Origin: Candidatus Omnitrophica bacterium UBA6249
GTDB taxonomy: Bacteria; Omnitrophota; Gorgyraeia; Gygaellales; Profunditerraquicolaceae
Assembly (NCBI GenBank): GCA_002441305.1
Contig: DJVT01000009.1
Location: forward strand, 345,210-409,209
DNA length: 64,000 nucleotides
Reading direction: 5' to 3'
Under the pieces are notes generated by a model. The model saw nothing but the letters and a program-made list of their open reading frames with translations, did no database searches and was not told the DNA's origin. Numbering within the stretch: position 1 is the stretch's first letter; each line of letters begins with the position of its first letter. This document shows, one piece after another, positions 35,163 through 56,110 of the stretch. A program made the translations under genes and the position numbers.

Positions 35163-36349
35163 TACCGGCCCCTCAATCTATTGGAAATCTCTCTCTGTAA
35201 ATCAAGAATGCGTTTATGCCTGTCTTCCTTTTCTTCCTGGGTAAGGGAATCGGCCAGTTTAGAAGACTGCGTATTCGGCCTGGGGGAATATTTGAATATA
35301 TATGAAGCGTTAAACCCGACGTTCTTGAGCAAGGCACAGGTCTCCTGGAAATCCCCCTCTGTTTCTGTGGGGAAACCTACGATAATATCCGTAGTCAATG
35401 TACCCCCTGTAACGATTCTACGATAAGAGTCGGTTAAAGCCAAGTACTCTTTTACGGAGTACCCGCGGTTCATAAGCTTGAGTATCCTGTCCGAACCGGA
35501 TTGCACCGGAAGATGCAGGGATTTCTCCAGCTTCTCCAGGTCCCTGATGGCGCGGAAAAATTCTTCATTGGCGTCTTTAGGGTGGGAGGTGAAAAAATTA
35601 AAACTCTCCAGCCCTTCCAGCGCGTTTACCTCTTCAAGAAGCCCCCTGAAACCGGAATCCCCCTGGCAATAAGCGTTTACATTCTGCCCCAGGAGGGTAA
35701 TCCTGGATATACCCGAACCCAATGCCCGGAGGATCTCCTCTATAACGCTGGACTGCGCGCGGTGGCGCAATGGCCCGCGCACATACGGAACAATACAATA
35801 CGAACAAAAATTTGAACAGCCCTCGGAAATAACCACGTAAGCATGACTCTTGTCCGCGCGGAAAGAAGTATGATAGACCTCATCCGGCCTCTCCTTGGCC
35901 GCAGTCTCCCAGACCTTCCGCTGGAATAACCCCTCATCCTGGCTCTGTCCTAAAGCAAGAAGCCGGTCAAGAATCGAGGGTATTTTGCCGATATCCTGCG
36001 GCCCCACCACAAAAGAAATCGCCGGGTCGCGCTGGAACGCCTTGTCTTGATAATTCTGCGCCATGCACCCGGCCAACCCGATAATCTTACTGCCTTTATA
36101 ACTCCCGATCAGGCTCCAGACACGGTCCTCGGCATGCTTGCGTACGGAGCAAGTATTAAAGATCACGACATCGGCGTCTTGATCGGAATCACAGACCCGG
36201 TAACCGGCACCCTGGAGAAGCCCGCAGATAATCTCGGAATCCCGGACATTCATCTGGCATCCGAAGGTACGCAAAAGCACACGTAGCTTCTTCGGGCTTT
36301 TGCCTCCGGAATCGCCTGTATTGTCGTCTTTTCGTTCGTTTTCAACCAT
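35162..36349 (-). CDS. miaB: tRNA-i6A37 methylthiotransferase MiaB. The 5' end (36278-36349) is supplied by the integrated element.
   Basis: 395 aa with the UPF0004 domain LRTFGCQMN, the radical-SAM CSNFCSYC motif and a TRAM C-terminus. The first 24 codons lie to the element side of the 20-bp att core and overlap the integrase 3' end in another frame. Confidence 0.85.
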   Translation of the reverse strand: MVENERKDDNTGDSGGKSPKKLRVLLRTFGCQMNVRDSEIICGLLQGAGYRVCDSDQDADVVIFNTCSVRKHAEDRVWSLIGSYKGSKIIGLAGCMAQNYQDKAFQRDPAISFVVGPQDIGKIPSILDRLLALGQSQDEGLFQRKVWETAAKERPDEVYHTSFRADKSHAYVVISEGCSNFCSYCIVPYVRGPLRHRAQSSVIEEILRALGSGISRITLLGQNVNAYCQGDSGFRGLLEEVNALEGLESFNFFTSHPKDANEEFFRAIRDLEKLEKSLHLPVQSGSDRILKLMNRGYSVKEYLALTDSYRRIVTGGTLTTDIIVGFPTETEGDFQETCALLKNVGFNASYIFKYSPRPNTQSSKLADSLTQEEKEDRHKRILDLQREISNRLRGR

Positions 36350-37935
36350 TTCATCCCCTCTTCATAGCAAGTCTTCCAAGGCTCATTCAACTCAAACTTC
36401 ACGATTTCCTGATTCTGGATAGTAATCGACTTAAAGACAATCCGCATGAACGTCTTTATAAGGTAGTCCAATTGGTGATTGTCGCTTTCGGGCGTACTGC
36501 GCAACCTTAAAAGGAAATCCTGCGTCGCTTTCACCAAATTGACGGAATTGCGCTTGTCCAGAATCTTAAGATGAATGGCCTTGATATCCTGCTTTAGTTT
36601 TTTCTCCTCATTACTTAAAAGCTCGGCTCTGTCCTTATAAAGCCCCATATTTATTTTGTCTTCTGAAAATAATTCGTATATAGCCCTTTGCTTCTCCACG
36701 TTCTTTTTAAGAAGCGCTTCCTTCTCCTCCAACTGCTCCATATATACCCGCTCCGGCTCAGAAGCGTTAAGCCGAATCATGTCGCCTAATTCTTCCAGCA
36801 CGTGAAGATTTTTTCTAATAACTTCAACGATATCCCAGACCTGCTTATTGATAGCATCAGCAGTCACGGATTTATTGTTGCACTTAATATACCGAATCCC
36901 TCTAGACGAACATCTATACCACGGACGCCTCATTTTGGTGCGGTGATTAACGATATGCGTCATCCCGCGATAATTACCGCCGCATTCATTGCATTTTAAT
37001 ATACCGGAAAGATGATAAACATTATTCCTGAATCTAACTATGCCATTAGTGCGGTTTCGCTTGAGAAGCGTGGAAGCCTCGTCAAACTCCCTTTGCGAAA
37101 TAATCGGCTCGTGCGTATTCGGGACCTCGATGATCTTGGAAGGATCATTCTTGATATAGCAATATCCCTTTCCCTCGCCATTTTTAGTCTTGATCTTTGT
37201 ATCGTAACGCCGCTTATTCCAGACCAGCATTCCCAAATACACTTTATTTTTAAGGATATCCGAGATGAATTTAGTATAAAACTTCCCGCCCTGCCGCGAA
37301 GGGATACCAAGCATGTAATAATGCCCGGCAATCTGCGAAGTGCTCTTGCCATTTATATACATCGAGAAAATTTCTTTGACGATTTTCGCTTCTTCAGGGT
37401 GGACTTCCAGTTTCTTGGCTTCCTTATTATAACGATAGCCATACGGCGCGTAACGCGCTCCCTGCCAATGCCCCCGCTTAACACCTACAACCATACCCGG
37501 AAAAACGCGCTCAACTAAACGATTACGCTCAAATTCCGCGCAACTGCCAAGCATTTGAATCGCCATTTTGCCCGCGCTCGATGTAGTATCAAACGGCTCA
37601 GTCGCTGATTTATAGCCAACACCCAAAGAATCAATCTCCTCAAGCAATCCTAACAGATCCTTGAGCCGACGACTTAAGCGATCTTGTTTATACACCAAGA
37701 CCAAATCAAACTGCTTATTGCGGGCATCGAAGAGAAGCCTCTGTAATGCCGGTCTATCCATATTGCCGCCGGAATAGCCGTCATCCATATAAACATCCCG
37801 GCCCGACATACTGCAAAAAACATCCCAGCCGAAGTTCTTCGCATATTGCAAAAGATACGTTCTCTGCACCTCCAGCGAAAATCCTTCGCGAGCTTGATCC
37901 TCTGTGCTAACTCTTGTGTATAACGCTACCCTCAT
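36250..37935 (-). CDS. Large serine recombinase (integrase 1)
   Basis: 561 aa with the resolvase catalytic domain ALYTRVSTEDQ, a recombinase domain, the zinc ribbon CNECGGNY...CSSRGIRYIKC and a coiled coil. Its last codons cross the att core. Confidence 0.9.
   Translation of the reverse strand: MRVALYTRVSTEDQAREGFSLEVQRTYLLQYAKNFGWDVFCSMSGRDVYMDDGYSGGNMDRPALQRLLFDARNKQFDLVLVYKQDRLSRRLKDLLGLLEEIDSLGVGYKSATEPFDTTSSAGKMAIQMLGSCAEFERNRLVERVFPGMVVGVKRGHWQGARYAPYGYRYNKEAKKLEVHPEEAKIVKEIFSMYINGKSTSQIAGHYYMLGIPSRQGGKFYTKFISDILKNKVYLGMLVWNKRRYDTKIKTKNGEGKGYCYIKNDPSKIIEVPNTHEPIISQREFDEASTLLKRNRTNGIVRFRNNVYHLSGILKCNECGGNYRGMTHIVNHRTKMRRPWYRCSSRGIRYIKCNNKSVTADAINKQVWDIVEVIRKNLHVLEELGDMIRLNASEPERVYMEQLEEKEALLKKNVEKQRAIYELFSEDKINMGLYKDRAELLSNEEKKLKQDIKAIHLKILDKRNSVNLVKATQDFLLRLRSTPESDNHQLDYLIKTFMRIVFKSITIQNQEIVKFELNEPWKTCYEEGMKWLKTNEKTTIQAIPEAKARRSYVCFCVPSDAR
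36258..36277. repeat. att core copy 1 (CATCCGAAGGTACGCAAAAG), the junction between miaB and element 1
   Basis: Identical 20-mer to 54295-54314. It lies inside miaB codons LLRTFGC and inside the last codons of integrase 1. Confidence 0.8.
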
Positions 37936-46911: not shown

Positions 46912-47328
46912 TCAAGAGAGAGCTTCGCCGTTCGCTTCCGGTTGATAAATGATTTTTTCAACCTGCAGTTTCGCAACACCTGCAGGCACTTTCCATTCAA
47001 TAATATCCCCAACGCTATATCCGAGTAATGCCGTACCAATCGGCGCTAAGATTGAAACTCTCCCCTGACTAGCATCGGCCTGATCGGGGAAAACCAATTG
47101 ATACGTTATTTCTTCTTTTGTGTTTAAATCTCGCAAATGAACTTCCGAGCTCATCGTGATAATGTCCTGCGGAATATCTTGAGATTTTATGATTTTGCCC
47201 CTGTTCAGCTCAGCTTCTAAATCCTGCAAATACTTCTCTTCTTCTTTTTTAAATTGTCTCGCAACCATTATCAATTCCCGTAATCTTCTCATATCATTAT
47301 CGGTAATATATATAGTTTTACTTGTCAT
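46912..47328 (-). CDS. rnk: Rnk / GreA-GreB family regulator (nucleoside diphosphate kinase regulator-like)
   Basis: 138 aa that aligns from memory with E. coli Rnk. Shared blocks are ...VVTM.S.V...........L V.P........VS.LAP.G.ALLG..VGD.I.W..P.G......V....YQPEA. Confidence 0.75.
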   Translation of the reverse strand: MTSKTIYITDNDMRRLRELIMVARQFKKEEEKYLQDLEAELNRGKIIKSQDIPQDIITMSSEVHLRDLNTKEEITYQLVFPDQADASQGRVSILAPIGTALLGYSVGDIIEWKVPAGVAKLQVEKIIYQPEANGEALS

Positions 47329-47345
47329 TTTTACCCCCTCCCTTT

Positions 47346-47663
47346 TTATCCAACAACACGGTTGACATTCATTACAAAAAGAATACCTTGTCCCGGCTCT
47401 TTTAAGTTACCATGTTTTTCCAGTACTTTGATGAGTTTCTCTCTGTTAACATCCAGCGTCAGAAGAATTAAAATCTCTCTAGATGAACCAATCTGCAAAC
47501 CAATTGTGCGTCTACCAGCTTCTGTACACAGCCCCTTACCGGAAAGCACAGTAGCGCCAAAAATCCCAGTGTCTTTAAGGACTGGCATTATTGCCTTTAT
47601 TTTTCCTTTCGGAAGAATAGCCACAATCAGTTTAAGCATCCCGAACCTCTTTCTCTTCATCAT
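47346..47663 (-). CDS. PII-like small signalling protein (beta-alpha-beta x2 pattern)
   Basis: MLKLIVAILPKGKIKAIMPVLKDTGIFGATVLSGKG..., then a T-loop-like segment, then ...GQGILFVMNVNRVVG. The probable start is the internal MLKLIV at 47639. Confidence 0.5.
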   Translation of the reverse strand: MMKRKRFGMLKLIVAILPKGKIKAIMPVLKDTGIFGATVLSGKGLCTEAGRRTIGLQIGSSREILILLTLDVNREKLIKVLEKHGNLKEPGQGILFVMNVNRVVG

Positions 47664-47985
47664 TTCATATCCCCTTTAACTTGTTTTAAATATCCAGCCA
47701 ATAGATCTCATCGACCAATCTGATATGTTCTAGCATCTTCCGAAAGTTTATAAAAACCACGGCTCAAACCGTAACATTAAATTTTATGCCAAATTATCAT
47801 TCGGATTACGGTATAAGCCTGAAAATAATCGAATTCAGCAATAGGCCTCCAGTGTTTTTCTGAGATTGCAGGAGGCCCATTGATCCATGAAGGTTTATCG
47901 TCCCTTTCGTTTTTTACCTTTTTTTGATCGCCACATAATCCCCATCGCCATTCACCTCCTTTCAAGGTCAATGTCGGACAGATTA

Positions 47986-48441
47986 TTAAACGTTTAATAC
48001 TTCTTTCACCCTTCGTTTAATATATTCCATATTAAAAGGCTGATATACCCACTCTTGCACCCCCAATTCAATTAACTTCTCTTTGCCTCTGATATCTTGT
48101 AACGATGACACCACAATAACGCAGGTCCTTAAGCTCATCTTTTTGATTTGCCGCATTATACTTTCGCAATACTCAATCGTCGTTGTAACCCCAACAATAA
48201 CCATATCCACGCGCTTTTGAGCTAACAACTCAAATATTTCCGAATGGCTGGACAGAGAAACCGTATGATAGCCGGATTTTTCCAGAAGCTCTCTAAGGCC
48301 CCGGCCGGGATCATAGTATTTTTGAGCGATCAAAATGGTCAGTTTCGTTCCAATTTTATAGTCCTGCCTCTGTCTAAATAACCGGATTAAGACGCGCCAC
48401 ACCTCTGACATCCTCAATGGTATAAAAAGCACCTTGATCAA
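47986..48441 (-). CDS. Receiver-like domain protein lacking the phospho-acceptor Asp (pseudo-receiver)
   Basis: It has the REC-type pattern LTILIAQ...VDMVIVGVTT...CVIVVSS...KP-like FNM. The canonical DD pair and phospho-Asp are replaced (QK.. and G). The start is uncertain because the ORF overlaps the upstream gene. Confidence 0.5.
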   Translation of the reverse strand: MIKVLFIPLRMSEVWRVLIRLFRQRQDYKIGTKLTILIAQKYYDPGRGLRELLEKSGYHTVSLSSHSEIFELLAQKRVDMVIVGVTTTIEYCESIMRQIKKMSLRTCVIVVSSLQDIRGKEKLIELGVQEWVYQPFNMEYIKRRVKEVLNV

Positions 48442-48910
48442 ATTTCTTTATTATGCCTAAAACGTTATCTAACAACTTGCGCCGGACAATGACAAAAACA
48501 ATCTTCACCGGCCCCGCTGTCCCCTGTCCGTCAATCGTCGTTGCGCCGTATCCTTTGGAACGAAAATATCTCAATAAACTAGCCGGATTTTTATTCGTTA
48601 TAAACTGGACAGCTAAATTGCCTATGGCGATTTTTCGTTCGATTGTAATACCTACAAAAGTGCCCATACTAAAGCCGCCCGCAAAAGCGATATAGCTGAT
48701 CGGGTTATTCAAATTCTGCATAATTTGCGATATGCCGATAAGCCAAACAAGCATCTCAAAAAATCCAATAATAGCAGCTAATGCCCTTATCCCTCGGCTG
48801 ACAAAAATAATCCTGACAGCAGCCATACTGACGTCTGCCGCCCGCGCGAGAAAAATTAAAATAGGAATCAATATTGGAACAAAATCATTTTGCGGAATAA
48901 CAAAAGACAT
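48374..48910 (-). CDS. UPF0316 family membrane protein with DUF2179 domain
   Basis: 178 aa with three TM helices (...ARAADVSMAAVRIIFVSRG...) and a C-terminal soluble domain (GYGATTIDGQGTAGPVKIVFVIVRRK). Confidence 0.6.
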   Translation of the reverse strand: MSFVIPQNDFVPILIPILIFLARAADVSMAAVRIIFVSRGIRALAAIIGFFEMLVWLIGISQIMQNLNNPISYIAFAGGFSMGTFVGITIERKIAIGNLAVQFITNKNPASLLRYFRSKGYGATTIDGQGTAGPVKIVFVIVRRKLLDNVLGIIKKFDQGAFYTIEDVRGVARLNPVI

Positions 48911-48957
48911 GTCTAAAATACCTCCTTTTTAATTCTCGCTACTTAACACTGGCTAAG

Positions 48958-49140
48958 TTATTTTTCCCTTATGGACTCCTGGAATCCTATAGGCCACCCA
49001 GTTTTAAATTGATAAAACACACACCTTATAAAACTACCACGGCAATGTTCTTCCTGTCGTTTCTCACTGGGAGAAAAGGCATTACTCGATACTCCTTCGC
49101 AAAAATTATTCCTTTCTTTCGATATAAAATACGGACACAT
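48958..49140 (-). CDS. Small 4-Cys protein, paralog 1 (MCPYF...C...C..F..C..YQ)
   Basis: 60 aa. It shares MCPYF, four Cys at matching spacing, and a terminal YQ with the ORF at 50606-50797. It starts 3 nt after the dual-REC stop. Confidence 0.55.
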   Translation of the reverse strand: MCPYFISKERNNFCEGVSSNAFSPSEKRQEEHCRGSFIRCVFYQFKTGWPIGFQESIREK

Positions 49141-49142
49141 GA

Positions 49143-49871
49143 TTAATTTCCTCTGCCAACATTAAGAATGCGCTCAACTTTCTCTATGAGGATGCTGACA
49201 CCTTCCGCTTTATCAAAATAATCGTCCGCTTCTTTGATTAAAGACTGCTGATCATCTTTCGGAAAGACGCTAGACACTATGATTTTTACTGGAGGGGTTC
49301 TTCCCTTGATTCTTTCATAAACTTCCATGCCGATTTTCTTGGGAAGCGCGATATCAAGAATGACTAATCCAATACCCCGCTCTTTAGCAAACAATTCAAG
49401 TCCCGACTCTCCGTCTTCGGCTTCCAGAGTGCGGTATCCAAGATTCTCCAATTGGTTACTGAATAACTTTCTTATTTTGAATTCATCTTCGATAATAAGT
49501 ATCGTGTTTAACGGCATTAAACTGCGCGCAACTTTCTTGATTTTCTCAAGCAAAATATCGACACCTTGAGCTTTGTCATAGTACTCTGCGGCATCTTTCA
49601 TTATTTCCCGCTGTTCTTCAACAGGATAAACGCTCGTTACAATTACTTTTATGCTCTTATGAAATACCTGCATAAGATCAAACAATACGCTTCCATAAAC
49701 ATGAGGAAGGTTGATGTCCAGCAGGATAATATCAAAATGTTTTCTAAGTAAAATTTCGCTGGCTTGCACGGCGTCAGAAACGCTTACCACTGCATACCCT
49801 TCGCTTTCAAGCAATTCCGCATGTAACTTTCGCACCTTGTCCTCATCTTCAACTATCAATATCCTCATCAT
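49143..49871 (-). CDS. Response regulator consisting of two tandem receiver domains and no output domain
   Basis: 242 aa. REC1 reads ILIVEDE...FDIILLDINLP and REC2 reads ILIIEDE...GLVILDIALP. Both end with a similar ..DDYFDKA.GV.IL.EK motif. Confidence 0.8.
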   Translation of the reverse strand: MMRILIVEDEDKVRKLHAELLESEGYAVVSVSDAVQASEILLRKHFDIILLDINLPHVYGSVLFDLMQVFHKSIKVIVTSVYPVEEQREIMKDAAEYYDKAQGVDILLEKIKKVARSLMPLNTILIIEDEFKIRKLFSNQLENLGYRTLEAEDGESGLELFAKERGIGLVILDIALPKKIGMEVYERIKGRTPPVKIIVSSVFPKDDQQSLIKEADDYFDKAEGVSILIEKVERILNVGRGN

Positions 49872-49943
49872 TTAGAATTCCCGTCTTTTATTCGTTTAAT
49901 AAGCAGCAGTAAGGCTGGGAAAGCGTAAAATTGCGAATAATTC

Positions 49944-50609
49944 TCAAATCTTGGCAATATTCACAGTGTGCGTAGCAATATCTCTTACGCTCTGAATAAT
50001 AAATAATAAAACAGTTTCGCCTCTCACCGTCGATTCTGCTGTTTTATTTGTCTCTATTAACTCATCCTGTCTACGGCTGCATATCTTTTTTAGTGTCAGG
50101 CTTGTTAAAACAGTTTTCTTCGCTAACGCCGTGTCTTGTTTTAAAAATGAAATGACCGAATCCCAAACTATATTTTGAAAAATTATAGCGAATTGAGAAA
50201 TATTGATTTTATCCTTGTCAGGGATATTTGTATTCAAGCTTAATAAGCTCTCCGCAATACCGGCGGTTAAGTCCGTAATTTGTTTTAATTCGCTACTAAT
50301 GTTTATGCTTGAAGAGATGAATTTCAAGACACTGTCCTCGGGGTGATATTGTCTAACGATATTAGTAAAATATTCTTCGTAAGCGACGCAAAGAACCCTT
50401 ATTTTTTTGTTATTATCTATTATCTCTTGCGTATTCTCGGCATCAAAACGCATCAGAACGCCAGAAATGTTTCTTATTGCCTCCTGCGTCAAACGGCAAA
50501 TTTGAAGTAAATCATCGTTTAATTTCCGAAGTTCTTTCTCAATGGCTATCATTAAAACATCCTCCGTATTCATCCAATAATTGCGCAATAACCAAACTAA
50601 AATATTCAT
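49944..50609 (-). CDS. PhoU-domain-like protein
   Basis: 221 aa in two helical repeats ending in PhoU-like ...ELKQITDLTAGIAE and ...SVRDIATHTVNIAK. Confidence 0.5.
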   Translation of the reverse strand: MNILVWLLRNYWMNTEDVLMIAIEKELRKLNDDLLQICRLTQEAIRNISGVLMRFDAENTQEIIDNNKKIRVLCVAYEEYFTNIVRQYHPEDSVLKFISSSINISSELKQITDLTAGIAESLLSLNTNIPDKDKINISQFAIIFQNIVWDSVISFLKQDTALAKKTVLTSLTLKKICSRRQDELIETNKTAESTVRGETVLLFIIQSVRDIATHTVNIAKI

Positions 50610-50797
50610 GCCTCATCACTTTTTGATCCCCGCACGGATTTGATAATAATGGACTTCATTTGTAATTGATAGAGTGGGCAATTCATAAATTTACCGACAC
50701 AATATTGTCTTTTGCGTTTGATGTTGGGGCGAAATAAACCGTCTCCGTAACATCCGCAATGACCAATCGGTCTTGTAGCAACAAAATAAGGACACAT
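50606..50797 (-). CDS. Small 4-Cys protein, paralog 2
   Basis: 63 aa from the internal ATG (MCPYFVATRPIGHCGCYGDGLFRPNIKRKRQYCVGKFMNCPLYQ...). It has a 4-nt ATGA overlap with the PhoU-like gene. Confidence 0.55.
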   Translation of the reverse strand: MCPYFVATRPIGHCGCYGDGLFRPNIKRKRQYCVGKFMNCPLYQLQMKSIIIKSVRGSKSDEA

Positions 50798-50967
50798 GAT
50801 GCATTTCCTCTTAATAAGCAGCAACCCCTGGCCCCTGTAAAATTGAGGCTGCGAGAAAATGTTAAACAATCTCAAATCGTTGAATATTTTTTAAGCCCCT
50901 TAGCTGCTACAAATGTATCAAAAAGGGGATTAACGAAAGGTTAAATAATAATTAAAATTTTTAATGA

Positions 50968-52026
50968 TTATTCGTGAGGATTCGGAGGGATATCGCCGGC
51001 AATTCGAGGCAGGTCTACGGTAAAAACAGTGCCTTTTCCGATTTGACTGGACACCGTTATTTCACCTTGATGAAGTTTTGCTATTGATTGTGCGATGCTT
51101 AACCCTAATCCACTGCTGGGAGCAGTATCTTTTATTTTCTCACCAATCCGAAAGAACTTATCAAAAAGTCGCGGAAGGTTTTCTTGTTCGATGCCGATAC
51201 CGGTATCAGCGATGGAAATTCTGATGCGATCAGTTTCAAAATGGGCAACAATATCTATTTTCCCATCCTGCGGCGTGTATTTTATAGCATTATCAATAAG
51301 ACTTAAAAATAAACGCCGAAGATTTGGTTCATCCGCATTCACCAACGCCGTTGTGTCGGGAACTTGAGCATTGACCGCTATATTCTTTCCCGTGGCTAAA
51401 ATCTTGGCCTTTTCAAACAACACTATAACAAATTGACTTAAATCCAAAGGCTGTAGCTGCAAATCGTTGGAACGATAATTGACGCGAGTCAACAATAAGA
51501 GGTCTTCAATGATCTTAAACATCCGTCGCGTTTCTTCTAAGCTACCGATAATAACTTGCTTATACTCTTCTTTATCCCGTTCCTTTTTTAGGGCAACTTC
51601 CGCCTCTCCTCTCATGATTGCGAGAGGCGTTTTTAGCTCATGGGCAATATACGAACTCGATTCGGTGATATAGGCAAAGGCGGCTTCAAGGCGAGAAATC
51701 ATGTCATTGAAAGCCTTAACTAAAAACTGCGTCTCTTCACCGGCATTCTCGACCTTAACTCTTCTGCTTAAATCCTCATGAGTAATGCCCTCAGCTACCT
51801 CGGCAACTTCCTTGATTGGTTTAATAATCTTTCCTATTGAAATCTGGCTCATTAAATAACCCAGCAAAAAAACCGGAGGTAAAGGCATTAAAAGATAACA
51901 AATCATTTCAATATTCCGAAAATTGGGACGAAGCAAAAAAAGAACAGTATAATAACCCCCTAAAAATACACTCAATAATATGATGTATAAAAAACTGCGT
52001 TTAAAGCTAACGGTTTTGAAACGCAT
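50968..52026 (-). CDS. Sensor histidine kinase (2 TM, HAMP, HisKA, HATPase_c)
   Basis: 352 aa with H-box HELKTPLAIMRG, N-box LIDNAIKYT, and G-boxes DTGIGI and GLGLSIA. Confidence 0.9.
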   Translation of the reverse strand: MRFKTVSFKRSFLYIILLSVFLGGYYTVLFLLRPNFRNIEMICYLLMPLPPVFLLGYLMSQISIGKIIKPIKEVAEVAEGITHEDLSRRVKVENAGEETQFLVKAFNDMISRLEAAFAYITESSSYIAHELKTPLAIMRGEAEVALKKERDKEEYKQVIIGSLEETRRMFKIIEDLLLLTRVNYRSNDLQLQPLDLSQFVIVLFEKAKILATGKNIAVNAQVPDTTALVNADEPNLRRLFLSLIDNAIKYTPQDGKIDIVAHFETDRIRISIADTGIGIEQENLPRLFDKFFRIGEKIKDTAPSSGLGLSIAQSIAKLHQGEITVSSQIGKGTVFTVDLPRIAGDIPPNPHE

Positions 52027-52697
52027 TATTCCTCCCTTATCGTGTAACCTTTACCATGAATGGTATGAATAAGCGGTTTCTTAAAATCTTTATCTATCTT
52101 ATTACGTAAAAAACTGATAAATACATCAATAACATTGGTGAAACTATCGAAATCCTCATGCCAGACATGCTCAGAAATCGTTGTCCGGGTAACAACATGA
52201 TTGGCATTAAGCATTAGGTATTCCAGAAGCGCGAATTCCTTACTGCTGAGCTGAATTTCTTTTCCCGCTCTTTTAACGTTATGACGTAATTGGTCTAGTT
52301 CTAAATCTCCAATTTTTAAAATGCCAGTCTTATCATCCCTATTCCTTCTTAGTAATGCTCCGATCCTAGCCGAAAGCTCTTCGAAATCAAACGGCTTCGC
52401 AAGATAATCATCCGCTCCGGAATTTAATCCTAAAACCTTATCCCTCACCTGATTTTTTGCGGTAAGCATTAAAATGGGCACGTTGATCTTCTTTTTTCTT
52501 AACTCTCGGCATATAGTGATCCCGTCTATATGCGGAAGCATGACATCAAGAATAATCAAATCATACGGGTTTATTTCCGCCAGAAACATGGCTTTCTCCC
52601 CATCGGTCGCCACATCAACAACATAATTCTCTTCTTTCAGCCCGCGCTCAATAAAATTAGCTATTTTTATTTCATCTTCTACTAATAATATCCGCAT
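52026..52697 (-). CDS. OmpR-family response regulator
   Basis: 223 aa with the REC domain ILLVEDE...DLIILDVMLP...LTAK and a winged-helix C-terminus. Its stop overlaps the kinase start. Confidence 0.9.
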   Translation of the reverse strand: MRILLVEDEIKIANFIERGLKEENYVVDVATDGEKAMFLAEINPYDLIILDVMLPHIDGITICRELRKKKINVPILMLTAKNQVRDKVLGLNSGADDYLAKPFDFEELSARIGALLRRNRDDKTGILKIGDLELDQLRHNVKRAGKEIQLSSKEFALLEYLMLNANHVVTRTTISEHVWHEDFDSFTNVIDVFISFLRNKIDKDFKKPLIHTIHGKGYTIREE

Positions 52698-52714
52698 TAT
52701 TTGCTCCTAAGAAT

Positions 52715-54175
52715 TTATTCTTTTAATCGTGCCAAAGCACATTGCAAAACAGAAAAATCTTCCGCATTTGCCAGCACCAATAAAACATCGCCGCCCTCGA
52801 TCACGGTTGACCCGGACGGAATAACAAATTTGTCGTTGCGCGAAACAAGCATGATCAGGCATTTCACCGGAACATTCAATTCCTTGATCATCTTGCCAAT
52901 AGCCTCTGAATTATACGGCACGATAACATCCGTCAGTTCCGCGTCAATGCCTTCAACTTTCTCAAATTCTATAGGGTATGCTTTCTTGTCAGGCAAAGGC
53001 ACATCCAACTTTAGCAGTTTTGAAACCAGAGGAATTGACGTGCCCTGAATAAAAACAGAAGCAATGACAATGAAAAACACGATATTAAAAATTGTCTCGG
53101 CCTGAGGAATGCCTGCCGCGAGCGGAAATGTGGCCAAGATGATCGGAACCGAGCCCCTCAATCCTACCCACGAAAGCATGATCTTTTTCGGCACGGCGAA
53201 TTTAAACGGAAGTAAGCAGAGAAAAACGCTCAAAGGCCGGGCAATAAACATGAGGACAATCGTAACCAGCAACCCTGTTCCGATAAGCGGAACCAAGTGA
53301 GAAGGATAAACGAGCAAACCTAAAGTCACGAACATGGCAATTTGGCTGATCCAAGCCAAACCGTCATGAAATTTCATAATGGATTTCTTATTAGGAAATT
53401 CCGTCTGCGCTAGACCGAGCCCAGCAAGATAAACCGCAAGGATCCCGTTTCCCTTTAAAAGAACTGCAATAACGTAAGTAAACAAGATCAATGAAATTGT
53501 TATAATTGGATAAAGGCCTTCATAATCTAATTTAAGCCGCTTGATAAAGAAAACGATGGCCTTCGCCATTAAATAACCGACAAGCGCCCCCATCCCCATA
53601 TCCAGAACGAATCTCGGAATCAGCGAAACGAGCCCTGATCCTTTCACGGTCAAAAGGCTCAAAAACCCCATTGTCAGAAAAATAGCCATCGGATCATTAC
53701 TGCCGGACTCGAATTCGAGCAACGGTTTCAATGGCTTCTTCAAACTTATGCGTCTTGATCTTAGAATAGCGAATACGGCGGCGGCGTCTGTAGATGAAAC
53801 GATAGATCCAAGCAACACACCGTCTAATAGAGAAAATTTGAGGACATAAACAGCAAACAACCCCGTAATAATTGCCGTAACCAATACTCCAAGAGTCGAA
53901 AGCACGATCCCCGGGAGAATAATTGGTCTTGTGTCTTTCCAGTTAGTATCAAGCCCGCCTGAAAAGATAATAAATATAAGTGCCAAAATACCGATCTGCT
54001 TCGCCAGTTGAGCATTATCAAAATAGATCTTGCCGATCCCTTCCGATCCGGCAAGCATCCCAACCGCCAAAAATAACAACAACACGGGAACCGCGAACTT
54101 GTCCGATATCTTGCTCGAAACAACGCTCACGAACATTAAAACCGAAGCCCATAATAAAATAGTTTCAAATGCCAT
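52715..54175 (-). CDS. nhaP2: K+/H+ antiporter NhaP2/CvrA type (CPA1) with C-terminal TrkA-C (RCK_C) domain
   Basis: 486 aa with about 12 TM helices, an N-terminus typical of NhaP2 and a C-terminal RCK_C-like segment (VIPSGSTVIEGGDVLLVLA). Confidence 0.8.
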   Translation of the reverse strand: MAFETILLWASVLMFVSVVSSKISDKFAVPVLLLFLAVGMLAGSEGIGKIYFDNAQLAKQIGILALIFIIFSGGLDTNWKDTRPIILPGIVLSTLGVLVTAIITGLFAVYVLKFSLLDGVLLGSIVSSTDAAAVFAILRSRRISLKKPLKPLLEFESGSNDPMAIFLTMGFLSLLTVKGSGLVSLIPRFVLDMGMGALVGYLMAKAIVFFIKRLKLDYEGLYPIITISLILFTYVIAVLLKGNGILAVYLAGLGLAQTEFPNKKSIMKFHDGLAWISQIAMFVTLGLLVYPSHLVPLIGTGLLVTIVLMFIARPLSVFLCLLPFKFAVPKKIMLSWVGLRGSVPIILATFPLAAGIPQAETIFNIVFFIVIASVFIQGTSIPLVSKLLKLDVPLPDKKAYPIEFEKVEGIDAELTDVIVPYNSEAIGKMIKELNVPVKCLIMLVSRNDKFVIPSGSTVIEGGDVLLVLANAEDFSVLQCALARLKE

Positions 54176-54229
54176 AAGTGAATTCTGTTTTTACCTTAAC
54201 CAATTCAATTTTTTTGCATAACTTCTTAA

Positions 54230-56110
54230 TCAATCTGCACCTATCAACGCCTCCGCCAAATCCGCCATGCTGTGTCTATAAGGTAGACAACGGCCATCCG
54301 AAGGTACGCAAAAGTATACGCTTTCCCTTCGGGGAACCTTCGCCTTCGGCTCGGTTTCCTCGGTGCTTTTCTTCGCCTTTTTTGGCGTCATTTCTCTCTT
54401 TGTTTGACATTTTACTCCTTCTTTCAAACTGTCATCCTGAGGAAGGCCGCAGGCCGACCGAAGGATCTCATCCTTAGCCAGATTCTTCGCCTTCGGCTCA
54501 GAATGACGGACTTTCAGTGCCTCGTCATAGCACATCTTCCACGGCTGATTAATATCAACCTTAACAATTTCCTGATTTTGAATATATATCCCTTTAAATA
54601 TAATCCTCATAAACGTCTTTATAAGGTAATCCATCTGCTGGGTGTTGGGATTACTCCTCAATTTCAATAGAAAATCCTGCGTGGCTTTCACCAGATTAAC
54701 CGCGTTACGTTTTTCAAGGATCTTTAACTGGATCGACTTTATATCCTGTCTGAGCTTCTTCTCCTCATTCCTGAGAAGTTCAGCCTTGTCTTTATAAATA
54801 TCAATATTGATCTTATCCTCTGAGAAAACCTCATAAAGCGCCTTCTGTTTTTCAAGGTTCTTGGCCAACGCCTTTTCCGTATCTTCCAACTGCTCGATAT
54901 AACACTGTTCAGGCTCAGTTGCGCTTAACTTGATCATGTCCCCCAGTTCTTCGATAACATGCAAATTTCTACTTATCGTATCAATAATATCCCAAACCTG
55001 TTTGTTGATCCCATCGGCCGTAACTGATTTATTCTTGCACTTAACATACGATACACCGACAGATGAACAGCAATACCACGGCCTACGTTCCTTCGTCCTG
55101 TGGTTCTTCGTTAAAGTCAACCCTCGGTAATTTCGCCCGCATTCATGGCATTTTAAAACACCGGACAGGTGATAAACATTGTTGCGAAATCTCACGACTT
55201 TATTTGTGCGGTTTCTATCAAGCAGTTTCTGCGCCTTATCAAACACCTCTTGAGTGATGATCGCTTCATGGCAATCCTTCACCTCAATAATCTTAGACGG
55301 ATCATTATTCACATACTTGTATCCCTTACCCTCGCCATTATGCGTTTTCTCTTTTTTCTCATACCGCTTTTTATTCCACACCAGCATGCCCAGATACGTC
55401 TTATTCTTGAGAATCGATGAAATAAATTTGGTATAAAACTTCCCGCCCTGACGTGATTTGATGCCTAAATTATAATAATGCCCGGCGATCTGAGACGTAC
55501 TTTTACCGCTAATATACATATCAAAAATCTCTTTAACGATCTTCGCTTCTTCGTCGTGGACTTCCAGCTTCTTGATCTCTTTATTGTAACGGTAACCATA
55601 AGGAGCATACCGTGCGCCTTGCCAGTGCCCACGCTTAACTCCCACAACCATGCCCGGGAATACGCGCTCAACCAGACGATTGCGTTCAAACTCCGCGCAA
55701 CTGCCCAACATCTGTATTGCCATCTTACCCGCGCTTGATGTGGTATCAAACGGCTCAGTCGCTGATTTGTAACCGATCCCTAACGACTCAAACTCCTCAA
55801 GTAACGCCAAAAGATCCTTTAACTTCCTGCTAAGCCTGTCCTGCTTATAAACCATTACCAAATCAAACTGCTTATTCTTCGCGTCAAACAAAAGCCTCTG
55901 CAAAGCTGGCCTGTCCATATTTCCACCGGAATAACCGTCATCCATATAAACATCTTTACCGGACATCGTGCAAACAACATCCCAGCCAAAGTTCTTGGCA
56001 TACTGCAAAAGGTAATCCCGCTGAACTTCCAGCGAAAACCCCTCCCGCGCCTGATCCTCTGTGCTGACTCTTGTGTATAAAGCTACTTTCATGTTCTCCT
56101 GCTCTGTCAT
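54230..56110 (-). CDS. Large serine recombinase (integrase 2) carrying an in-frame repeat insertion near the C-terminus
   Basis: 626 aa, collinear with integrase 1 (ALYTRVSTEDQAREGFSLEVQR..., zinc ribbon, coiled coil). The probable start is MKVALY at 56092. The tail reads across the att core into the distal arm of element 1. Confidence 0.9.
   Translation of the reverse strand: MTEQENMKVALYTRVSTEDQAREGFSLEVQRDYLLQYAKNFGWDVVCTMSGKDVYMDDGYSGGNMDRPALQRLLFDAKNKQFDLVMVYKQDRLSRKLKDLLALLEEFESLGIGYKSATEPFDTTSSAGKMAIQMLGSCAEFERNRLVERVFPGMVVGVKRGHWQGARYAPYGYRYNKEIKKLEVHDEEAKIVKEIFDMYISGKSTSQIAGHYYNLGIKSRQGGKFYTKFISSILKNKTYLGMLVWNKKRYEKKEKTHNGEGKGYKYVNNDPSKIIEVKDCHEAIITQEVFDKAQKLLDRNRTNKVVRFRNNVYHLSGVLKCHECGRNYRGLTLTKNHRTKERRPWYCCSSVGVSYVKCKNKSVTADGINKQVWDIIDTISRNLHVIEELGDMIKLSATEPEQCYIEQLEDTEKALAKNLEKQKALYEVFSEDKINIDIYKDKAELLRNEEKKLRQDIKSIQLKILEKRNAVNLVKATQDFLLKLRSNPNTQQMDYLIKTFMRIIFKGIYIQNQEIVKVDINQPWKMCYDEALKVRHSEPKAKNLAKDEILRSACGLPQDDSLKEGVKCQTKREMTPKKAKKSTEETEPKAKVPRRESVYFCVPSDGRCLPYRHSMADLAEALIGAD
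54295..54314. repeat. att core copy 2 (CATCCGAAGGTACGCAAAAG), the junction between element 1 and element 2
   Basis: Identical to 36258-36277. It lies in the 3' end of integrase 2. Confidence 0.8.
54431..54507. repeat. Inverted pair of the GTCATYCTGA...GAAGRATC repeat family (miniature element) inside the integrase 2 ORF
   Basis: GTCATCCTGAGGAAGGCCGCAGGCCGACCGAAGGATC (54431-54467) faces GATTCTTCGCCTTCGGCTCAGAATGAC (54481-54507). The pair is translated as RHSEPKAKNLAKDEILRSACGLPQDDS. Confidence 0.8.

What the first reader, a model, noticed from the sequence alone, without database searches (positions are those of the whole stretch)
46912..54175. The cargo includes an unusually dense signalling and ion-homeostasis cluster with two paralogous 4-Cys mini-proteins
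Eleven co-oriented, tightly spaced genes lie here. They are Rnk (GreA-like), a PII-like protein, a pseudo-receiver lacking the phospho-Asp, and a UPF0316/DUF2179 membrane protein. Next come 4-Cys mini-protein 1, a two-receiver response regulator with no output domain, a PhoU-like protein, and 4-Cys mini-protein 2. Last are an HK/OmpR-type pair and a NhaP2 K+/H+ antiporter with an RCK_C domain. The two mini-proteins share MCPYF-x8-C-x7-F-x-P-x8-C-x-G-x-F-x2-C-x2-YQ. Each is coupled to a regulator gene, one with a 3-nt gap after the dual-REC gene and one with an ATGA overlap with the PhoU-like gene. Small ligand-binding modules (PII-like, DUF2179, RCK_C) recur here with a monovalent-cation antiporter. 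This suggests a self-contained sensing circuit for cation, pH or redox state, carried on a mobile element. I do not recognise the 4-Cys family.
Basis: inference. Interest (0 to 1): 0.65.

Follow-up and report, generated by a model that had tools for sequence, protein, structure and literature searches.

The report
Conserved signalling operon with Cys4 mini-proteins
An 11-gene signalling and ion-transport operon found almost only in the uncultured phylum Omnitrophota contains a previously undescribed family of ~60-residue four-cysteine proteins that always sit between a receiver-domain gene and an RNA-polymerase-binding Rnk gene, and this copy rides on an integrated mobile element.

Summary
All 11 genes lie on the minus strand and every family call passes a profile search. 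The two mini-ORFs are real genes: they have ribosome-binding sites and dN/dS of 0.08-0.20. They belong to a new family with invariant C2, P3, C14, P24, C33 and C40, and it has no Pfam, NCBIfam or PDB match. An exhaustive search of 1.84 billion representative proteins found only 16 clusters. DNA pattern scans found 56 further loci, nearly all Omnitrophota (including Ca. Velamenicoccus archaeovorus LiM), and all carry the same operon genes beside the mini gene. The constant partners are the dual receiver upstream (35/36) and Rnk downstream (40/40). DUF2179 (19/22), PhoU (24/40) and PII-like (13/40) are optional. The "mobile cargo" claim is supported. An attB inside a MiaB-like methylthiotransferase gene can be rebuilt from two junctions, which places the cluster inside an ~18-kb serine-recombinase element, one of two in tandem. 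Related clusters also occur next to ordinary genes, including a second copy in the LiM genome. Function is inferred, not shown. The likeliest reading is a two-component circuit tied to K+/H+ (and Mg2+) transport, with a receiver-to-mini-protein-to-Rnk branch acting on RNA polymerase. The metal, redox or heme chemistry of the mini-proteins is untested, and structure prediction failed.

The parts
52715..54175 (-). NhaP2-type K+/H+ antiporter with a C-terminal TrkA_C (RCK_C) domain, 486 aa; first gene of the cluster
   Evidence: Pfam Na_H_Exchanger 163 bits + TrkA_C 55 bits. NCBIfam NF003716 597.6 bits against a cut-off of 355. Found upstream of OmpR in L021, L022, L027, L031, L040, L043, L053, L055 and L056.
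52026..52697 (-). OmpR-family response regulator (receiver + winged-helix DNA-binding domain), 223 aa
   Evidence: Response_reg 104 bits + Trans_reg_C 90 bits. Present in 19/20 loci with enough upstream sequence.
50968..52026 (-). Histidine kinase, 352 aa: two transmembrane helices with an ~8-residue outer loop, then HAMP-HisKA-HATPase_c (intramembrane-sensing type)
   Evidence: Pfam domains. Hydropathy gives TM1 ~12-32 and TM2 ~41-60. Overlaps the OmpR gene by 1 nt. Present in 24/25 loci that can be assessed.
50606..50797 (-). Mini-protein 2, 63 aa, subfamily C (5 Cys); the 'before PhoU' slot
   Evidence: GAGGAAA ribosome-binding site in front of the ATG. 21 distinct orthologous sequences, median dN/dS 0.138. 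The stop overlaps the long PhoU start (ATGA).
49944..50609 (-). PhoU-like protein, 221 aa (202 aa if it starts at the ATG at 50552)
   Evidence: PF01895 56 bits with two repeats. TIGR02135 scores 65.6, below its cut-off of 130. Aligns with A. aeolicus PhoU (1T72) at 1.4e-18; the E/DxxxD metal motifs are changed to KQITD and RDIAT.
49143..49871 (-). Dual-receiver response regulator with no output domain, 242 aa
   Evidence: Two Response_reg stretches, 124 bits. Acidic pocket, phospho-Asp and Lys are invariant in both domains in 23/23 distinct orthologues. Found upstream of the mini gene in 35/36 loci.
48958..49140 (-). Mini-protein 1, 60 aa, subfamily D (4 Cys); lies 2 nt after the dual-receiver stop codon
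   Evidence: The exact protein occurs in metagenome contigs (P0001). 9 distinct orthologues, median dN/dS 0.196. Ribosome-binding site and a single possible start.
48374..48910 (-). UPF0316 membrane protein (DUF5698 + DUF2179), 178 aa
   Evidence: Pfam 77 and 39.7 bits. NF003191 210 bits against a cut-off of 179. Present in 19/22 loci that can be assessed, with mini genes on one or both sides.
47986..48441 (-). Pseudo-receiver (start probably at 48402-48411); found only in the type II variant of the cluster
   Evidence: Response_reg 33.8 bits. G at the phospho-Asp position, Q at the Lys position, QK at the acidic pair. G in 7/7 orthologues.
47664..47985 (-). Conserved non-coding leader between the pseudo-receiver and PII genes. 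It holds a 16-codon ORF (47895-47945, MGIMWRSKKGKKRKGR), a 12-bp hairpin and a terminator-like hairpin (47756-47775).
   Evidence: The GGAGGTG ribosome-binding site and the ORF are conserved in relatives ~80-82% identical over this 381-nt stretch, and the five variable sites read in the ORF are all synonymous. Terminator-like site. No Rfam match.
47346..47663 (-). PII-like protein (97 aa from MLKLIV at 47639); the T-loop is ~5 residues shorter than in canonical PII
   Evidence: Pfam P-II 26.6 bits against 25. Orthologue profile against PII structures: E=1.9e-5, full length. Present in 13/40 loci.
46912..47328 (-). Rnk (GreA/GreB-fold protein that binds the RNA polymerase secondary channel), 138 aa; last gene
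   Evidence: NF004396 132 bits against a cut-off of 109. A Gre/Rnk-family gene lies downstream of the mini gene(s) in 40/40 loci that can be assessed, and also in the divergent loci L076 and L077.
54295..54302 (-). Core TTCGGATG of an attP-like junction between the tandem elements Y and X; it lies inside the 3' end of the Y recombinase gene, ~120 nt upstream of NhaP2
   Evidence: Junction alignment, core positions and sequence. L055, L050 and L069 keep high identity with the window only on the cluster side of this point.
36258..36265 (-). Core TTCGGATG of attR of element X, joined to the 3' part of a MiaB/RimO-like methylthiotransferase gene (ORF 35162-36349)
   Evidence: Joining the left flank of L050 to this right flank restores one ORF reading ...KVFVKT|FGCQMNVRDSE..., with a complete UPF0004 domain (1-98 of 98) and a Radical_SAM domain.
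54230..56110 (-). Large serine recombinase of element Y, 626 aa
   Evidence: Resolvase + Recombinase + Zn_ribbon_recom.
36250..37935 (-). Large serine recombinase of element X, 561 aa. X is the element that carries the cluster.
   Evidence: Resolvase + Recombinase + Zn_ribbon_recom. 70-78% DNA identity to the Y copy at a spacing of ~18.1 kb.

Best explanation
This is a multi-part two-component signalling operon found almost only in Omnitrophota. The copy in the window is cargo of an ~18-kb serine-recombinase integrative element inserted in a MiaB-like gene.

Shown here:
- The gene families.
- The conserved gene order: NhaP2, OmpR, HK, dual receiver, mini, (mini), UPF0316, mini, PhoU, Rnk, (Rnk), (PII).
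- The mini-proteins are real, conserved, cytoplasmic-type proteins with four invariant Cys.
- Their constant neighbours are a phosphorylatable receiver protein and an Rnk-family gene.

Inferred mechanism:
1. The kinase has no sensor domain, only two membrane helices and an ~8-residue loop. It probably reads the state of membrane partners in the operon, namely the K+/H+ antiporter and UPF0316. Where a PhoU-like protein is present it would act as adaptor, as PhoU links PstB to PhoR.
2. The kinase phosphorylates the OmpR-type regulator, giving promoter-specific output. It also phosphorylates the dual receiver, which is a branch or a phosphate sink.
3. The Cys4 mini-proteins are metal-binding adaptor subunits (Zn or Fe-S is most likely). 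They couple the receiver branch to UPF0316/PhoU and finally to Rnk. Rnk competes for the RNA polymerase secondary channel, so the signal would reach transcription globally.
4. The physiological input is most likely cation or pH homeostasis: K+/H+, and Mg2+ in the loci flanked by MgtE.
For: - Family calls.
- Family size and distribution: 16 clusters among 1.84 billion representative proteins. There are 16 true loci among GTDB species genomes, nearly all Omnitrophota and including two loci in Ca. V. archaeovorus LiM, and 40 metagenome loci. All of these carry the same operon genes beside the mini gene.
- Co-occurrence: Rnk 40/40, dual receiver 35/36, HK 24/25, OmpR 19/20, DUF2179 19/22, PhoU 24/40, PII 13/40.
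- Minimal variants are dual receiver-mini-Rnk (L016, L038, L057). Divergent members keep REC-mini-GreA_GreB (L076, L077).
- Translation signals: a ribosome-binding motif in 45/54 distinct upstream regions, and the ATG of MCPYF is the only possible start in 40/54.
- dN/dS of 0.08-0.20 in all four subfamilies.
- The mini-proteins are hydrophilic, with no membrane segment or signal peptide.
- Both receiver domains keep all phosphorylation residues in 23/23 orthologues; the kinase topology comes from hydropathy.
- MgtE lies directly downstream of the operon in L022 and L058.
- Mobile element: ~18.1-kb tandem homology, junction alignment, attB reconstitution, and defence cargo in the sister element Y.
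Against: - There is no expression, interaction or phenotype data, so co-transcription is not shown.
- A terminator-like hairpin and a 322-nt leader separate PII-Rnk from the upstream genes in this variant.
- The Cys spacing (x11, x18, x6) has no CxxC knuckle, so metal binding is only a guess.
- AlphaFold gave pLDDT 40.7 and 53.0 with contradictory secondary structure.
- The PhoU-like protein has lost the canonical E/DxxxD residues and falls below the PhoU equivalog cut-off. PhoU and mini-2 are dispensable in near-identical copies.
- NhaP2 was seen in only 4 of 9 loci with enough upstream sequence (one of the five misses, L001, is a detection failure), so the link to the antiporter is weaker than the link to Rnk.
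- One divergent member (L078) sits in an unrelated context.
Confidence: 0.5

Rival explanations
1. The mini-proteins are redox, Fe-S or heme sensors that supply the input signal, rather than passive adaptors. The invariant N-terminal Cys-Pro-aromatic motif, and a second Cys-Pro in subfamilies A and B, would bind heme or a cluster. That would gate the receiver or PhoU branch according to redox or iron state in these anaerobes.
For: C2-P3-[YF]-[FL] is invariant, and C23-P24 is present in subfamilies A and B. This resembles Cys-Pro heme-regulatory motifs (my own knowledge, not tested). Members have 4 to 6 Cys and the number depends on the subfamily. Hemerythrin-domain genes lie close to the operon in L036 and L058.
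Against: There is no cofactor evidence. Subfamilies C and D lack the second Cys-Pro. No homology was found to any known heme or Fe-S protein. The hemerythrin neighbour appears in only 2 loci.
Confidence: 0.2
2. The mini-proteins are structural zinc-binding subunits of a membrane complex with UPF0316 (DUF2179) and PhoU. They have no direct link to the receiver or to Rnk, and the adjacency to those genes only reflects operon order.
For: Mini genes flank the DUF2179 gene on both sides with gaps of 8-60 nt or ATGA overlaps (L009, L035, L047), and overlap PhoU. DUF2179 is present in 19/22 loci.
Against: Loci with a mini gene but neither DUF2179 nor PhoU exist: L016, L038, L057 and L077, all REC-mini-Rnk. 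PhoU is absent in 16/40 loci.
Confidence: 0.15
3. The mini-proteins are exported Cys-rich peptides (pheromone, bacteriocin or modified-peptide precursors) that the adjacent kinase senses, as in the Agr and Com peptide-sensing systems.
For: They are small Cys-rich ORFs in 1-3 copies next to a kinase/regulator pair.
Against: The phmmer map of the 58 loci marks only cluster genes between the dual receiver and Rnk, with short gaps, so no exporter, peptidase or modifying enzyme is seen there. There is no signal peptide or double-glycine leader, and the proteins are hydrophilic. The whole 45-residue core starting at residue 1 is conserved with dN/dS of 0.08-0.20, unlike fast-evolving pheromones. The kinase has only an ~8-residue outer loop.
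Confidence: 0.04
4. The eleven genes are not one functional unit. The element simply picked up a stretch of host DNA holding several unrelated small operons.
For: There are two larger intergenic gaps, one with a terminator-like hairpin. The content is modular: PhoU+mini-2, the pseudo-receiver and PII come and go between variants.
Against: The same gene set and order recurs in 58 distinct loci that are only 66-99% identical in DNA to the LiM type I locus. Gaps are very short or the genes overlap.
Confidence: 0.05

Closest known systems
PhoR-PhoB / PhoU / PstSCAB phosphate-signalling complex
   Same: A kinase without its own ligand-binding sensor, an OmpR-family regulator, a PhoU-fold protein and a transporter are encoded together. 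This suggests that the kinase senses through the transporter with a PhoU adaptor in between.
   Different: There are no pst genes; the transporter is a K+/H+ antiporter. The kinase has HAMP but no PAS domain. The PhoU-like protein is below the PhoU equivalog cut-off and has lost the E/DxxxD residues. PhoU is optional (24/40 loci). The dual receiver, Cys4 mini-proteins, UPF0316, Rnk and PII-like protein are extra.
PhyR-NepR-sigma(EcfG) partner switch of Alphaproteobacteria
   Same: A phosphorylatable receiver protein, a ~60-residue small protein and a factor that binds RNA polymerase are encoded together. This gives a model in which the phosphorylated receiver captures the small protein and frees the polymerase-binding factor.
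   Different: There is no sequence relationship. The dual receiver has no sigma-like domain. The polymerase-binding partner is a secondary-channel factor (Rnk), not a sigma factor. The small protein is Cys-rich. The analogy is a hypothesis only.
E. coli Rnk and other secondary-channel factors (GreA/GreB, Gfh1, DksA/TraR)
   Same: The last gene meets the Rnk equivalog model. [quoted passage not shown] Gfh1 activity depends on pH (same review), which fits the ion and pH theme.
   Different: In E. coli, Rnk has no known regulatory partner. Here it is always linked to a two-component system and a Cys4 mini-protein, and often comes as two paralogues of 143 and 172 aa. DksA and TraR carry their own CxxC...CxxC zinc finger; the mini-proteins have no CxxC.
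K+ homeostasis circuits with RCK_C/PII-like ligand sensors (KdpDE; c-di-AMP-controlled KhtTU, CpaA, KtrA, PstA/DarA)
   Same: A cation/proton antiporter with an RCK_C (TrkA_C) domain is combined with a two-component system and small PII-fold proteins.
   Different: No nucleotide-binding test was possible and no cyclase gene was examined. The PII-like protein is highly divergent with a shortened T-loop. The resemblance rests on domain types only.
Intramembrane-sensing histidine kinases (BceS, LiaS type) and dual-CheY proteins such as FrzZ
   Same: The kinase has two membrane helices and a minimal outer loop, which implies an accessory sensor protein. The tandem-receiver protein has no output domain.
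   Different: No ABC transporter or LiaF-type partner and no chemosensory genes are present. The candidate accessory proteins are NhaP2, UPF0316, PhoU and the mini-proteins.
Large-serine-recombinase integrative elements and prophages (phiC31, Bxb1, TP901-1 type integration into a gene)
   Same: The recombinase has the Resolvase + Recombinase + Zn_ribbon_recom architecture and lies next to the att site. Integration is inside a host gene, there are no long direct repeats, and the cargo region is variable.
   Different: No phage structural genes are present. The backbone is HTH_17, primase-polymerase/helicase and recombinase. There are two related elements in tandem with an attP-like junction. 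The cargo is an entire 11-gene signalling operon paralogous to a second operon copy in the related LiM genome.

Membership tests
Cys4 mini-protein family (new, defined here) | 57-75 aa; starts M-C-P-[YF]-[FL]; invariant C2, P3, C14, P24, C33, C40 with no indels in residues 1-45 | tested here: met
   Both window proteins fit. 53 distinct sequences in four subfamilies.
Cys4 mini-protein family (new, defined here) | Encoded between a receiver-domain gene and a Gre/Rnk-family gene | tested here: met
   Window: both mini genes lie between HK/dual receiver and Rnk. Across loci: 35/36 and 40/40.
Zinc ribbon / rubredoxin / DksA-type C4 zinc finger | Two CxxC (or CPxC) knuckles | tested here: not met
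   The Cys spacings are 11, 18 and 6 residues with no CxxC. No Pfam hit up to E=10. The best PDB profile matches have E of 0.39 or worse.
Exported peptide pheromone or modified-peptide precursor | Leader or signal sequence plus a neighbouring exporter, protease or modifying enzyme | tested here: not met
   Hydrophilic with no leader. The phmmer map of the 58 loci shows only cluster genes beside the mini genes. Strong purifying selection on the whole core.
Rnk (nucleoside diphosphate kinase regulator, NF004396) | Score above the equivalog cut-off over the full length | tested here: met
   132.2 bits against 109; residues 2-136 match model positions 3-135 of 137.
Rnk | [quoted passage not shown] | not testable with these tools
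   Known for E. coli Rnk only (PMC4598747).
PhoU (phosphate signalling complex protein) | Two PhoU repeats | tested here: met
   PF01895 56.1 bits, 2 stretches. Aligns with 1T72 over residues 23-220.
PhoU (phosphate signalling complex protein) | Equivalog-level score (TIGR02135) and conserved E/DxxxD metal-binding motifs | tested here: not met
   65.6 bits against a cut-off of 130.25. ERMGD is replaced by KQITD and ERIAD by RDIAT in the alignment to 1T72.
PhoU (phosphate signalling complex protein) | Genomic association with pstSCAB and phoRB | tested here: not met
   The gene calls with Pfam hits that were read for copies of the window locus show no Pst-type transporter. The other loci were screened only for the cluster's own families.
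PII (GlnB/GlnK) signal proteins | P-II fold detectable over the full length | tested here: met
   Pfam 26.6 bits against 25. Orthologue profile against 3MHY: E=1.9e-5, positions 2-96 against 1-100.
PII (GlnB/GlnK) signal proteins | Canonical T-loop length and an equivalog-level score | tested here: not met
   The T-loop region is ~5 residues shorter (gaps). NCBIfam scores are 16.5 and 12.6 against cut-offs of 181 and 202.
UPF0316 (DUF5698 + DUF2179) | Both domains present and an equivalog-level score | tested here: met
   PF18955 77 bits, PF10035 39.7 bits, NF003191 210.4 against 179.
NhaP2/CvrA K+/H+ antiporter | CPA1 membrane domain + C-terminal TrkA_C; equivalog-level score | tested here: met
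   NF003716 597.6 against 355; Pfam domains. Ion specificity was not tested.
Phosphorylatable receiver domains | Acidic pair, phospho-Asp and conserved Lys | tested here: met
   Both domains of the dual receiver: invariant in 23/23 orthologues.
Phosphorylatable receiver domains | The same residues in the 138/151-aa receiver-like protein | tested here: not met
   G at the Asp position (7/7), Q/R/K at the Lys position, QK at the acidic pair. It is a pseudo-receiver.
Large-serine-recombinase integrative element | Resolvase + Recombinase + Zn_ribbon_recom recombinase next to the att site; the target site can be rebuilt from the two junctions | tested here: met
   Domain architecture. The left flank of L050 plus the window flank at 36265 restore an intact UPF0004/Radical_SAM methylthiotransferase ORF.
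Known anti-phage defence systems | Match to PADLOC system models | tested here: not met
   Only generic HATPase and receiver hits.

The most novel reading that the evidence does not exclude
The dual receiver, the Cys4 mini-protein and Rnk form a phosphorylation-driven partner switch acting on the RNA polymerase secondary channel. The mini-protein holds Rnk (or the receiver) until the kinase phosphorylates the dual receiver, and a metal, heme or thiol state of the four cysteines adds a second input. This would be the first known signal-controlled regulator of a secondary-channel factor, and it would give Rnk a physiological role. A mobile element would then carry its own copy of such a circuit to reprogramme host transcription.
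Probability: 0.15. Interest if true: 0.8.

Novelty: new variant of a known kind. Interest (0 to 1): 0.55.

Why it matters
- It defines a new, tightly conserved small-protein family in a phylum with no cultured isolates and ties it to a specific genomic context.
- It gives a concrete, testable context for Rnk. Rnk binds RNA polymerase and its function has stayed unknown since its structure was solved.
- It shows an integrative element carrying a complete 11-gene signalling and ion-transport operon that is paralogous to a second copy in the related LiM genome, rather than the usual defence or metabolic cargo.
- Ca. Velamenicoccus archaeovorus is an ultra-small predator of methanogens with a reduced genome. 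Two copies of such an operon suggest that ion or pH sensing is important for that lifestyle.

Tried and rejected
- Structure prediction of the mini-proteins failed twice. With 4 sequences it gave pLDDT 40.7 and all-beta. With 16 sequences it gave pLDDT 53.0 and mostly helical. The models contradict each other, so no fold search was run.
- The profile search of the PDB gave only noise, E of 0.39 or worse. Pfam up to E=10, NCBIfam up to E=1 and PADLOC gave nothing for the mini-proteins.
- The word-indexed protein search found few members, 3 and then 16. The exhaustive HMM search was needed.
- My first DNA pattern was mistyped (123 instead of 120 bases). It found nothing in genome contigs or in the window. 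It was corrected and checked on the window, then rerun.
- The viral contig collection has no member.
- L011 (Chitinophagaceae) is a chance pattern match with no operon context. P0016 is a repeat-protein false positive.
- I first read the junction next to the recombinase as evidence that the cluster lay outside the element. The ~18.1-kb periodicity and the attB reconstitution reversed that reading.
- Literature: no mention of this operon in the two Omnitrophota overview papers searched. The DUF2179/UPF0316 search returned only incidental mentions. The original V. archaeovorus paper (PMC9004380) is not held. The supplements of PMC12583861 list no cluster protein.
- Rfam found nothing in the conserved intergenic leaders. 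The promoter and terminator scans were near the level expected from shuffles.

Full report
**1. The observation**

The region 46912-54175 holds eleven ORFs, all on the minus strand. In the order they are transcribed:

| Gene | Coordinates |
|---|---|
| NhaP2-type antiporter with TrkA_C | 52715-54175 |
| OmpR-type regulator | 52026-52697 |
| HAMP-HisKA-HATPase kinase | 50968-52026 |
| Mini-protein 2 (63 aa from the ATG) | 50606-50797 |
| PhoU-like protein | 49944-50609 |
| Dual receiver | 49143-49871 |
| Mini-protein 1 (60 aa) | 48958-49140 |
| UPF0316 (DUF5698+DUF2179) | 48374-48910 |
| Receiver-like protein | 47986-48441 |
| PII-like protein | 47346-47663 |
| Rnk | 46912-47328 |

All family calls pass Pfam and/or NCBIfam. 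The weakest is PII, at 26.6 bits against a cut-off of 25. A profile of seven orthologues strengthens it: it hits PII structures over their full length at E=1.9e-5. The receiver-like protein is a true pseudo-receiver. It has G at the phospho-Asp position, Q at the conserved Lys and QK at the acidic pair, and the G is present in 7/7 orthologues.

The two mini-proteins share the stated motif and align without gaps at E=6e-12. The back-translated motif matches twice in the window against 0.00 expected by chance.

Minor corrections:
- The gap between the dual receiver and mini-1 is 2 nt, not 3.
- Two intergenic gaps are long, at 170 and ~322 nt.
- The ATGA overlap of mini-2 with PhoU depends on the long PhoU start. 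That start is conserved in orthologues, but public gene calls did not use it.

**2. The mini-proteins are real genes of a new family**

Each has a ribosome-binding motif 5-9 nt upstream. Across 54 distinct upstream regions, 45 have such a motif. In 40 of them the ATG of MCPYF is the only possible start.

An exhaustive HMM search of 1.84 billion representative proteins found 16 genuine clusters, all 57-81 aa. The core, residues 1-45, has no indels and has invariant C2, P3, C14, P24, C33 and C40.

From the DNA of 87 gene copies I defined four subfamilies with 4, 5 or 6 cysteines. The median dN/dS over the 45 core codons is 0.079, 0.138, 0.125 and 0.196, which means strong purifying selection. 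The proteins are hydrophilic, with no membrane segment or leader.

There is no Pfam hit up to E=10 and no NCBIfam hit up to E=1. The best PDB profile match has E=0.39, and every source that names one of these proteins calls it hypothetical. AlphaFold failed (pLDDT 40.7 and 53.0), so the fold is unknown.

**3. Distribution and gene neighbourhood**

I scanned public collections with a degenerate DNA pattern for the motif.
- **GTDB species genomes:** 17 loci, of which one (L011) is a chance hit.
- **Metagenome contigs:** 40 loci.
- **Viral contigs:** none.

The genome hits are almost all Candidatus Omnitrophota. They include the complete genome of Ca. Velamenicoccus archaeovorus LiM, which has two loci. 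L019 is 99.3% identical to the window's cluster, and L022 is a diverged second copy.

I mapped the window's proteins onto all ORFs of the loci with phmmer. Every true hit carries the same operon genes beside the mini gene.

- **Type I order (commonest):** NhaP2, OmpR, HK, dual receiver, mini A, (mini B), UPF0316, mini C, PhoU, Rnk' (143 aa), Rnk (172 aa), (PII).
- **Type II order:** OmpR, HK, dual receiver, mini D, UPF0316, pseudo-receiver, PII, Rnk.
- **The window:** type II with a mini C-PhoU module inserted between HK and the dual receiver.

The mini genes occupy fixed slots:
- directly after the dual receiver, at 2-52 nt;
- directly before UPF0316;
- directly after UPF0316, at 13 nt, overlapping PhoU.

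Presence among the 58 distinct loci, counting only loci with enough flanking sequence:

| Gene | Present / assessable |
|---|---|
| Rnk-family gene downstream | 40/40 |
| Dual receiver upstream | 35/36 |
| HK | 24/25 |
| OmpR | 19/20 |
| DUF2179 | 19/22 |
| PhoU | 24/40 |
| PII | 13/40 |

Reduced variants are simply dual receiver-mini-Rnk (L016, L038, L057). The most divergent family members keep the same trio. L077 has REC, then 2 nt, then mini, then GreA_GreB. L076 has mini, a saccharopine dehydrogenase-like gene, GreA_GreB, REC and PhoU. One short contig (L078) has a different context.

So the constant association is receiver, mini-protein, Rnk.

**4. Other features that bear on mechanism**

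- The kinase has two membrane helices (~12-32 and ~41-60), an ~8-residue outer loop and then HAMP. That is the intramembrane-sensing type, which usually relies on accessory proteins (the generalisation is established knowledge of BceS/LiaS-type kinases).
- Both receiver domains of the dual receiver keep the acidic pocket, phospho-Asp and Lys in 23/23 orthologues.
- The PhoU-like protein aligns with A. aeolicus PhoU at 1.4e-18, but the two E/DxxxD motifs read KQITD and RDIAT. It also scores below the PhoU equivalog cut-off.
- In type I loci a MgtE Mg2+ transporter gene follows Rnk directly (L022, L058). Hemerythrin-domain genes lie nearby in L036 and L058.
- Rnk is known to bind RNA polymerase and to compete with Gre factors and DksA, and its physiological function is unknown (PMC4598747).

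**5. Is it mobile-element cargo? Yes.**

The window contains two related backbones ~18.1 kb apart, at 36.25-43.1 kb and 54.3-61.4 kb. They are 70-78% identical. Each reads HTH_17, primase-polymerase/helicase, small genes, then large serine recombinase.

Three kinds of junction share the core TTCGGATG:
- **Window 54302:** the recombinase 3' end joined to the cluster side.
- **Window 36265:** the second recombinase's 3' end joined to a different flank.
- **L050 position 1143:** a contig whose cluster is 99.8% identical to the window's. Here an unrelated left flank is joined to the same cluster side.

Joining the left flank of L050 to the window flank at 36265 gives one continuous ORF reading ...KVFVKT|FGCQMNVRDSE...ADVVIFNTCSVR...CSNFCSYC.... 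It has a complete UPF0004 domain (positions 1-98 of 98) and a Radical_SAM domain, so it is a MiaB/RimO-type methylthiotransferase.

From this I conclude:
- attB lies inside that gene.
- 36265 is attR.
- The L050 junction is attL.
- The window junction at 54302 is attP-like, as expected between two elements in tandem.

Element X therefore spans ~36265-54302. It carries, in order, the cluster, a LexA/S24-type repressor, YhcG, DpnI, HTH_17, the primase-polymerase and the recombinase.

Element Y starts at 54302 and runs beyond the window. In the position equivalent to X's cargo it carries a SIR2-domain gene, a 1037-aa gene and a type I restriction-modification system.

The cargo is mosaic:
- L055 has a 99%-identical cluster that lacks the 942-bp mini-2-PhoU module. 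Its neighbouring recombinase is only 72% identical.
- L031, L035, L047 and L049 have PhoU but no mini-2.
- The LiM genome diverges from the window downstream of 46508.
- Several contigs end at or close to the cluster borders.

GC content is not decisive. The cluster is ~40% GC against 52.9% for the LiM genome, but the second LiM copy is also ~40%.

**6. Interpretation**

The descriptive part is solid. This is an Omnitrophota-wide accessory-rich two-component operon with a new Cys4 small-protein family, and one variant is captured on an integrative element.

The mechanism is inferred. The sensor-less kinase would read membrane partners, namely the antiporter and UPF0316, with PhoU as an optional adaptor by analogy with PhoU-PstB-PhoR. 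It would signal to the OmpR regulator and to the dual receiver. The mini-proteins, probably holding a metal through the four invariant cysteines, would couple that branch to Rnk and so to RNA polymerase.

The rival readings, scored in the report sections, are:
- the mini-proteins are redox, heme or Fe-S sensors;
- they are subunits of a UPF0316/PhoU membrane complex;
- they are exported peptides;
- the eleven genes are not one functional unit.

The most novel reading is a partner switch on a secondary-channel factor, analogous to PhyR-NepR-sigma(EcfG). I put its probability at about 0.15.

**7. Novelty and score**

None of the parts other than the mini-proteins is new as a family, and the overall logic (two-component system plus accessory proteins) is a known kind. 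What is new:
- the mini-protein family;
- its strict linkage to a receiver and Rnk;
- carriage of a whole signalling operon as element cargo.

I found no prior description in the literature I could search. I rate it a new variant of a known kind, with interest 0.55.

Noticed in passing
window 36250-64000 (element X ~36265-54302; element Y 54302 to beyond the window end): Two related integrative elements lie in tandem inside a MiaB/RimO-like methylthiotransferase gene. Each has the backbone HTH_17, primase-polymerase/helicase, large serine recombinase. The junction between them looks like an intact attP. The host gene's 3' part is the ORF at 35162-36349.
   Followed up: yes
window 54230-54302 and 36250-36265: The crossover core lies inside the recombinase reading frame. 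The recombinase at the attP-like junction is 626 aa, with its last ~23 residues encoded beyond the core. The one at attR stops 8 nt after the core and is 561 aa. So the integrated and excised forms would encode recombinases with different C-termini.
   Followed up: partly
window 47895-47945 (-) within the leader 47664-47985: A 16-codon ORF (MGIMWRSKKGKKRKGR) with a GGAGGTG ribosome-binding site is conserved in relatives ~80-82% identical over this stretch, and the five variable sites are all synonymous. A conserved 12-bp hairpin and a terminator-like hairpin follow it, upstream of PII-Rnk. It could be a leader peptide or attenuator. There is no Rfam match.
   Followed up: partly
window 38599-38659, 46686-46746, 57686-57746: A GC-rich ~45-60-nt repeat (core GGGTCCTTGG...GAGGGTCGGGCGAGGCGC...CAGTGAT) occurs once in each element backbone, downstream of the primase gene. 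A third copy lies just downstream of Rnk. Its function is unknown. The third copy suggests that element X is itself a composite.
   Followed up: partly
window 49898-50839; L055 4616-4705: The mini-2 + PhoU module is a 942-bp segment that is present or absent between otherwise 99%-identical clusters. Relatives about 79-85% identical (L031, L035, L047, L049) have PhoU but no mini-2.
   Followed up: partly
window 43671-46415; L079 1-9075 (extends beyond the window end): Both elements carry defence-type cargo. X has DpnI (methyl-directed restriction), a YhcG/DUF1016 nuclease and a LexA/S24-like repressor. Y has a SIR2_2 gene with a 1037-aa partner and a type I restriction-modification system. The window's 917-aa ORF at 61228-63981 is the truncated 1037-aa gene.
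   Followed up: partly
L022 3-488; L058 8351-9706; L036 8190-8741; L058 6313-6864: In type I copies of the operon that are not next to a recombinase, an MgtE Mg2+ transporter gene directly follows the Rnk genes (two loci), and hemerythrin-domain genes lie nearby (two loci). A saccharopine dehydrogenase-like gene occurs in L076, and a similar 480-aa ORF (not profile-tested) in L058.
   Followed up: partly
L041 4827-~7000; L052 5342-~7500: Other operon variants also lie next to a DUF2924 gene plus a serine recombinase-like gene. In L041 there are also large ORFs whose N-termini look like type I restriction enzyme genes (not profile-tested). These clusters may often sit in or beside integration hotspots.
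   Followed up: no
L078 772-963: A divergent family member (P0012, with extra cysteines) lies between a peptidoglycan-binding-domain gene and a glycine-zipper outer-membrane-type gene, not in the usual operon. The contig is short.
   Followed up: no
window 1258-1610, 2774-2977: RNase P RNA (class A, 179.9 bits) and tRNA-Val(CAC) and tRNA-Met(CAT) genes mark the left part of the window as ordinary chromosome (~49-51% GC).
   Followed up: no
L015, L018, L013, L009 (GTDB records): Records labelled Planctomycetales or Planctomycetia carry operon copies ~93% identical to the LiM type I locus, so they are probably mislabelled Omnitrophota bins. L013 (labelled Elusimicrobia, 58% GC) has a reduced, divergent version.
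   Followed up: no
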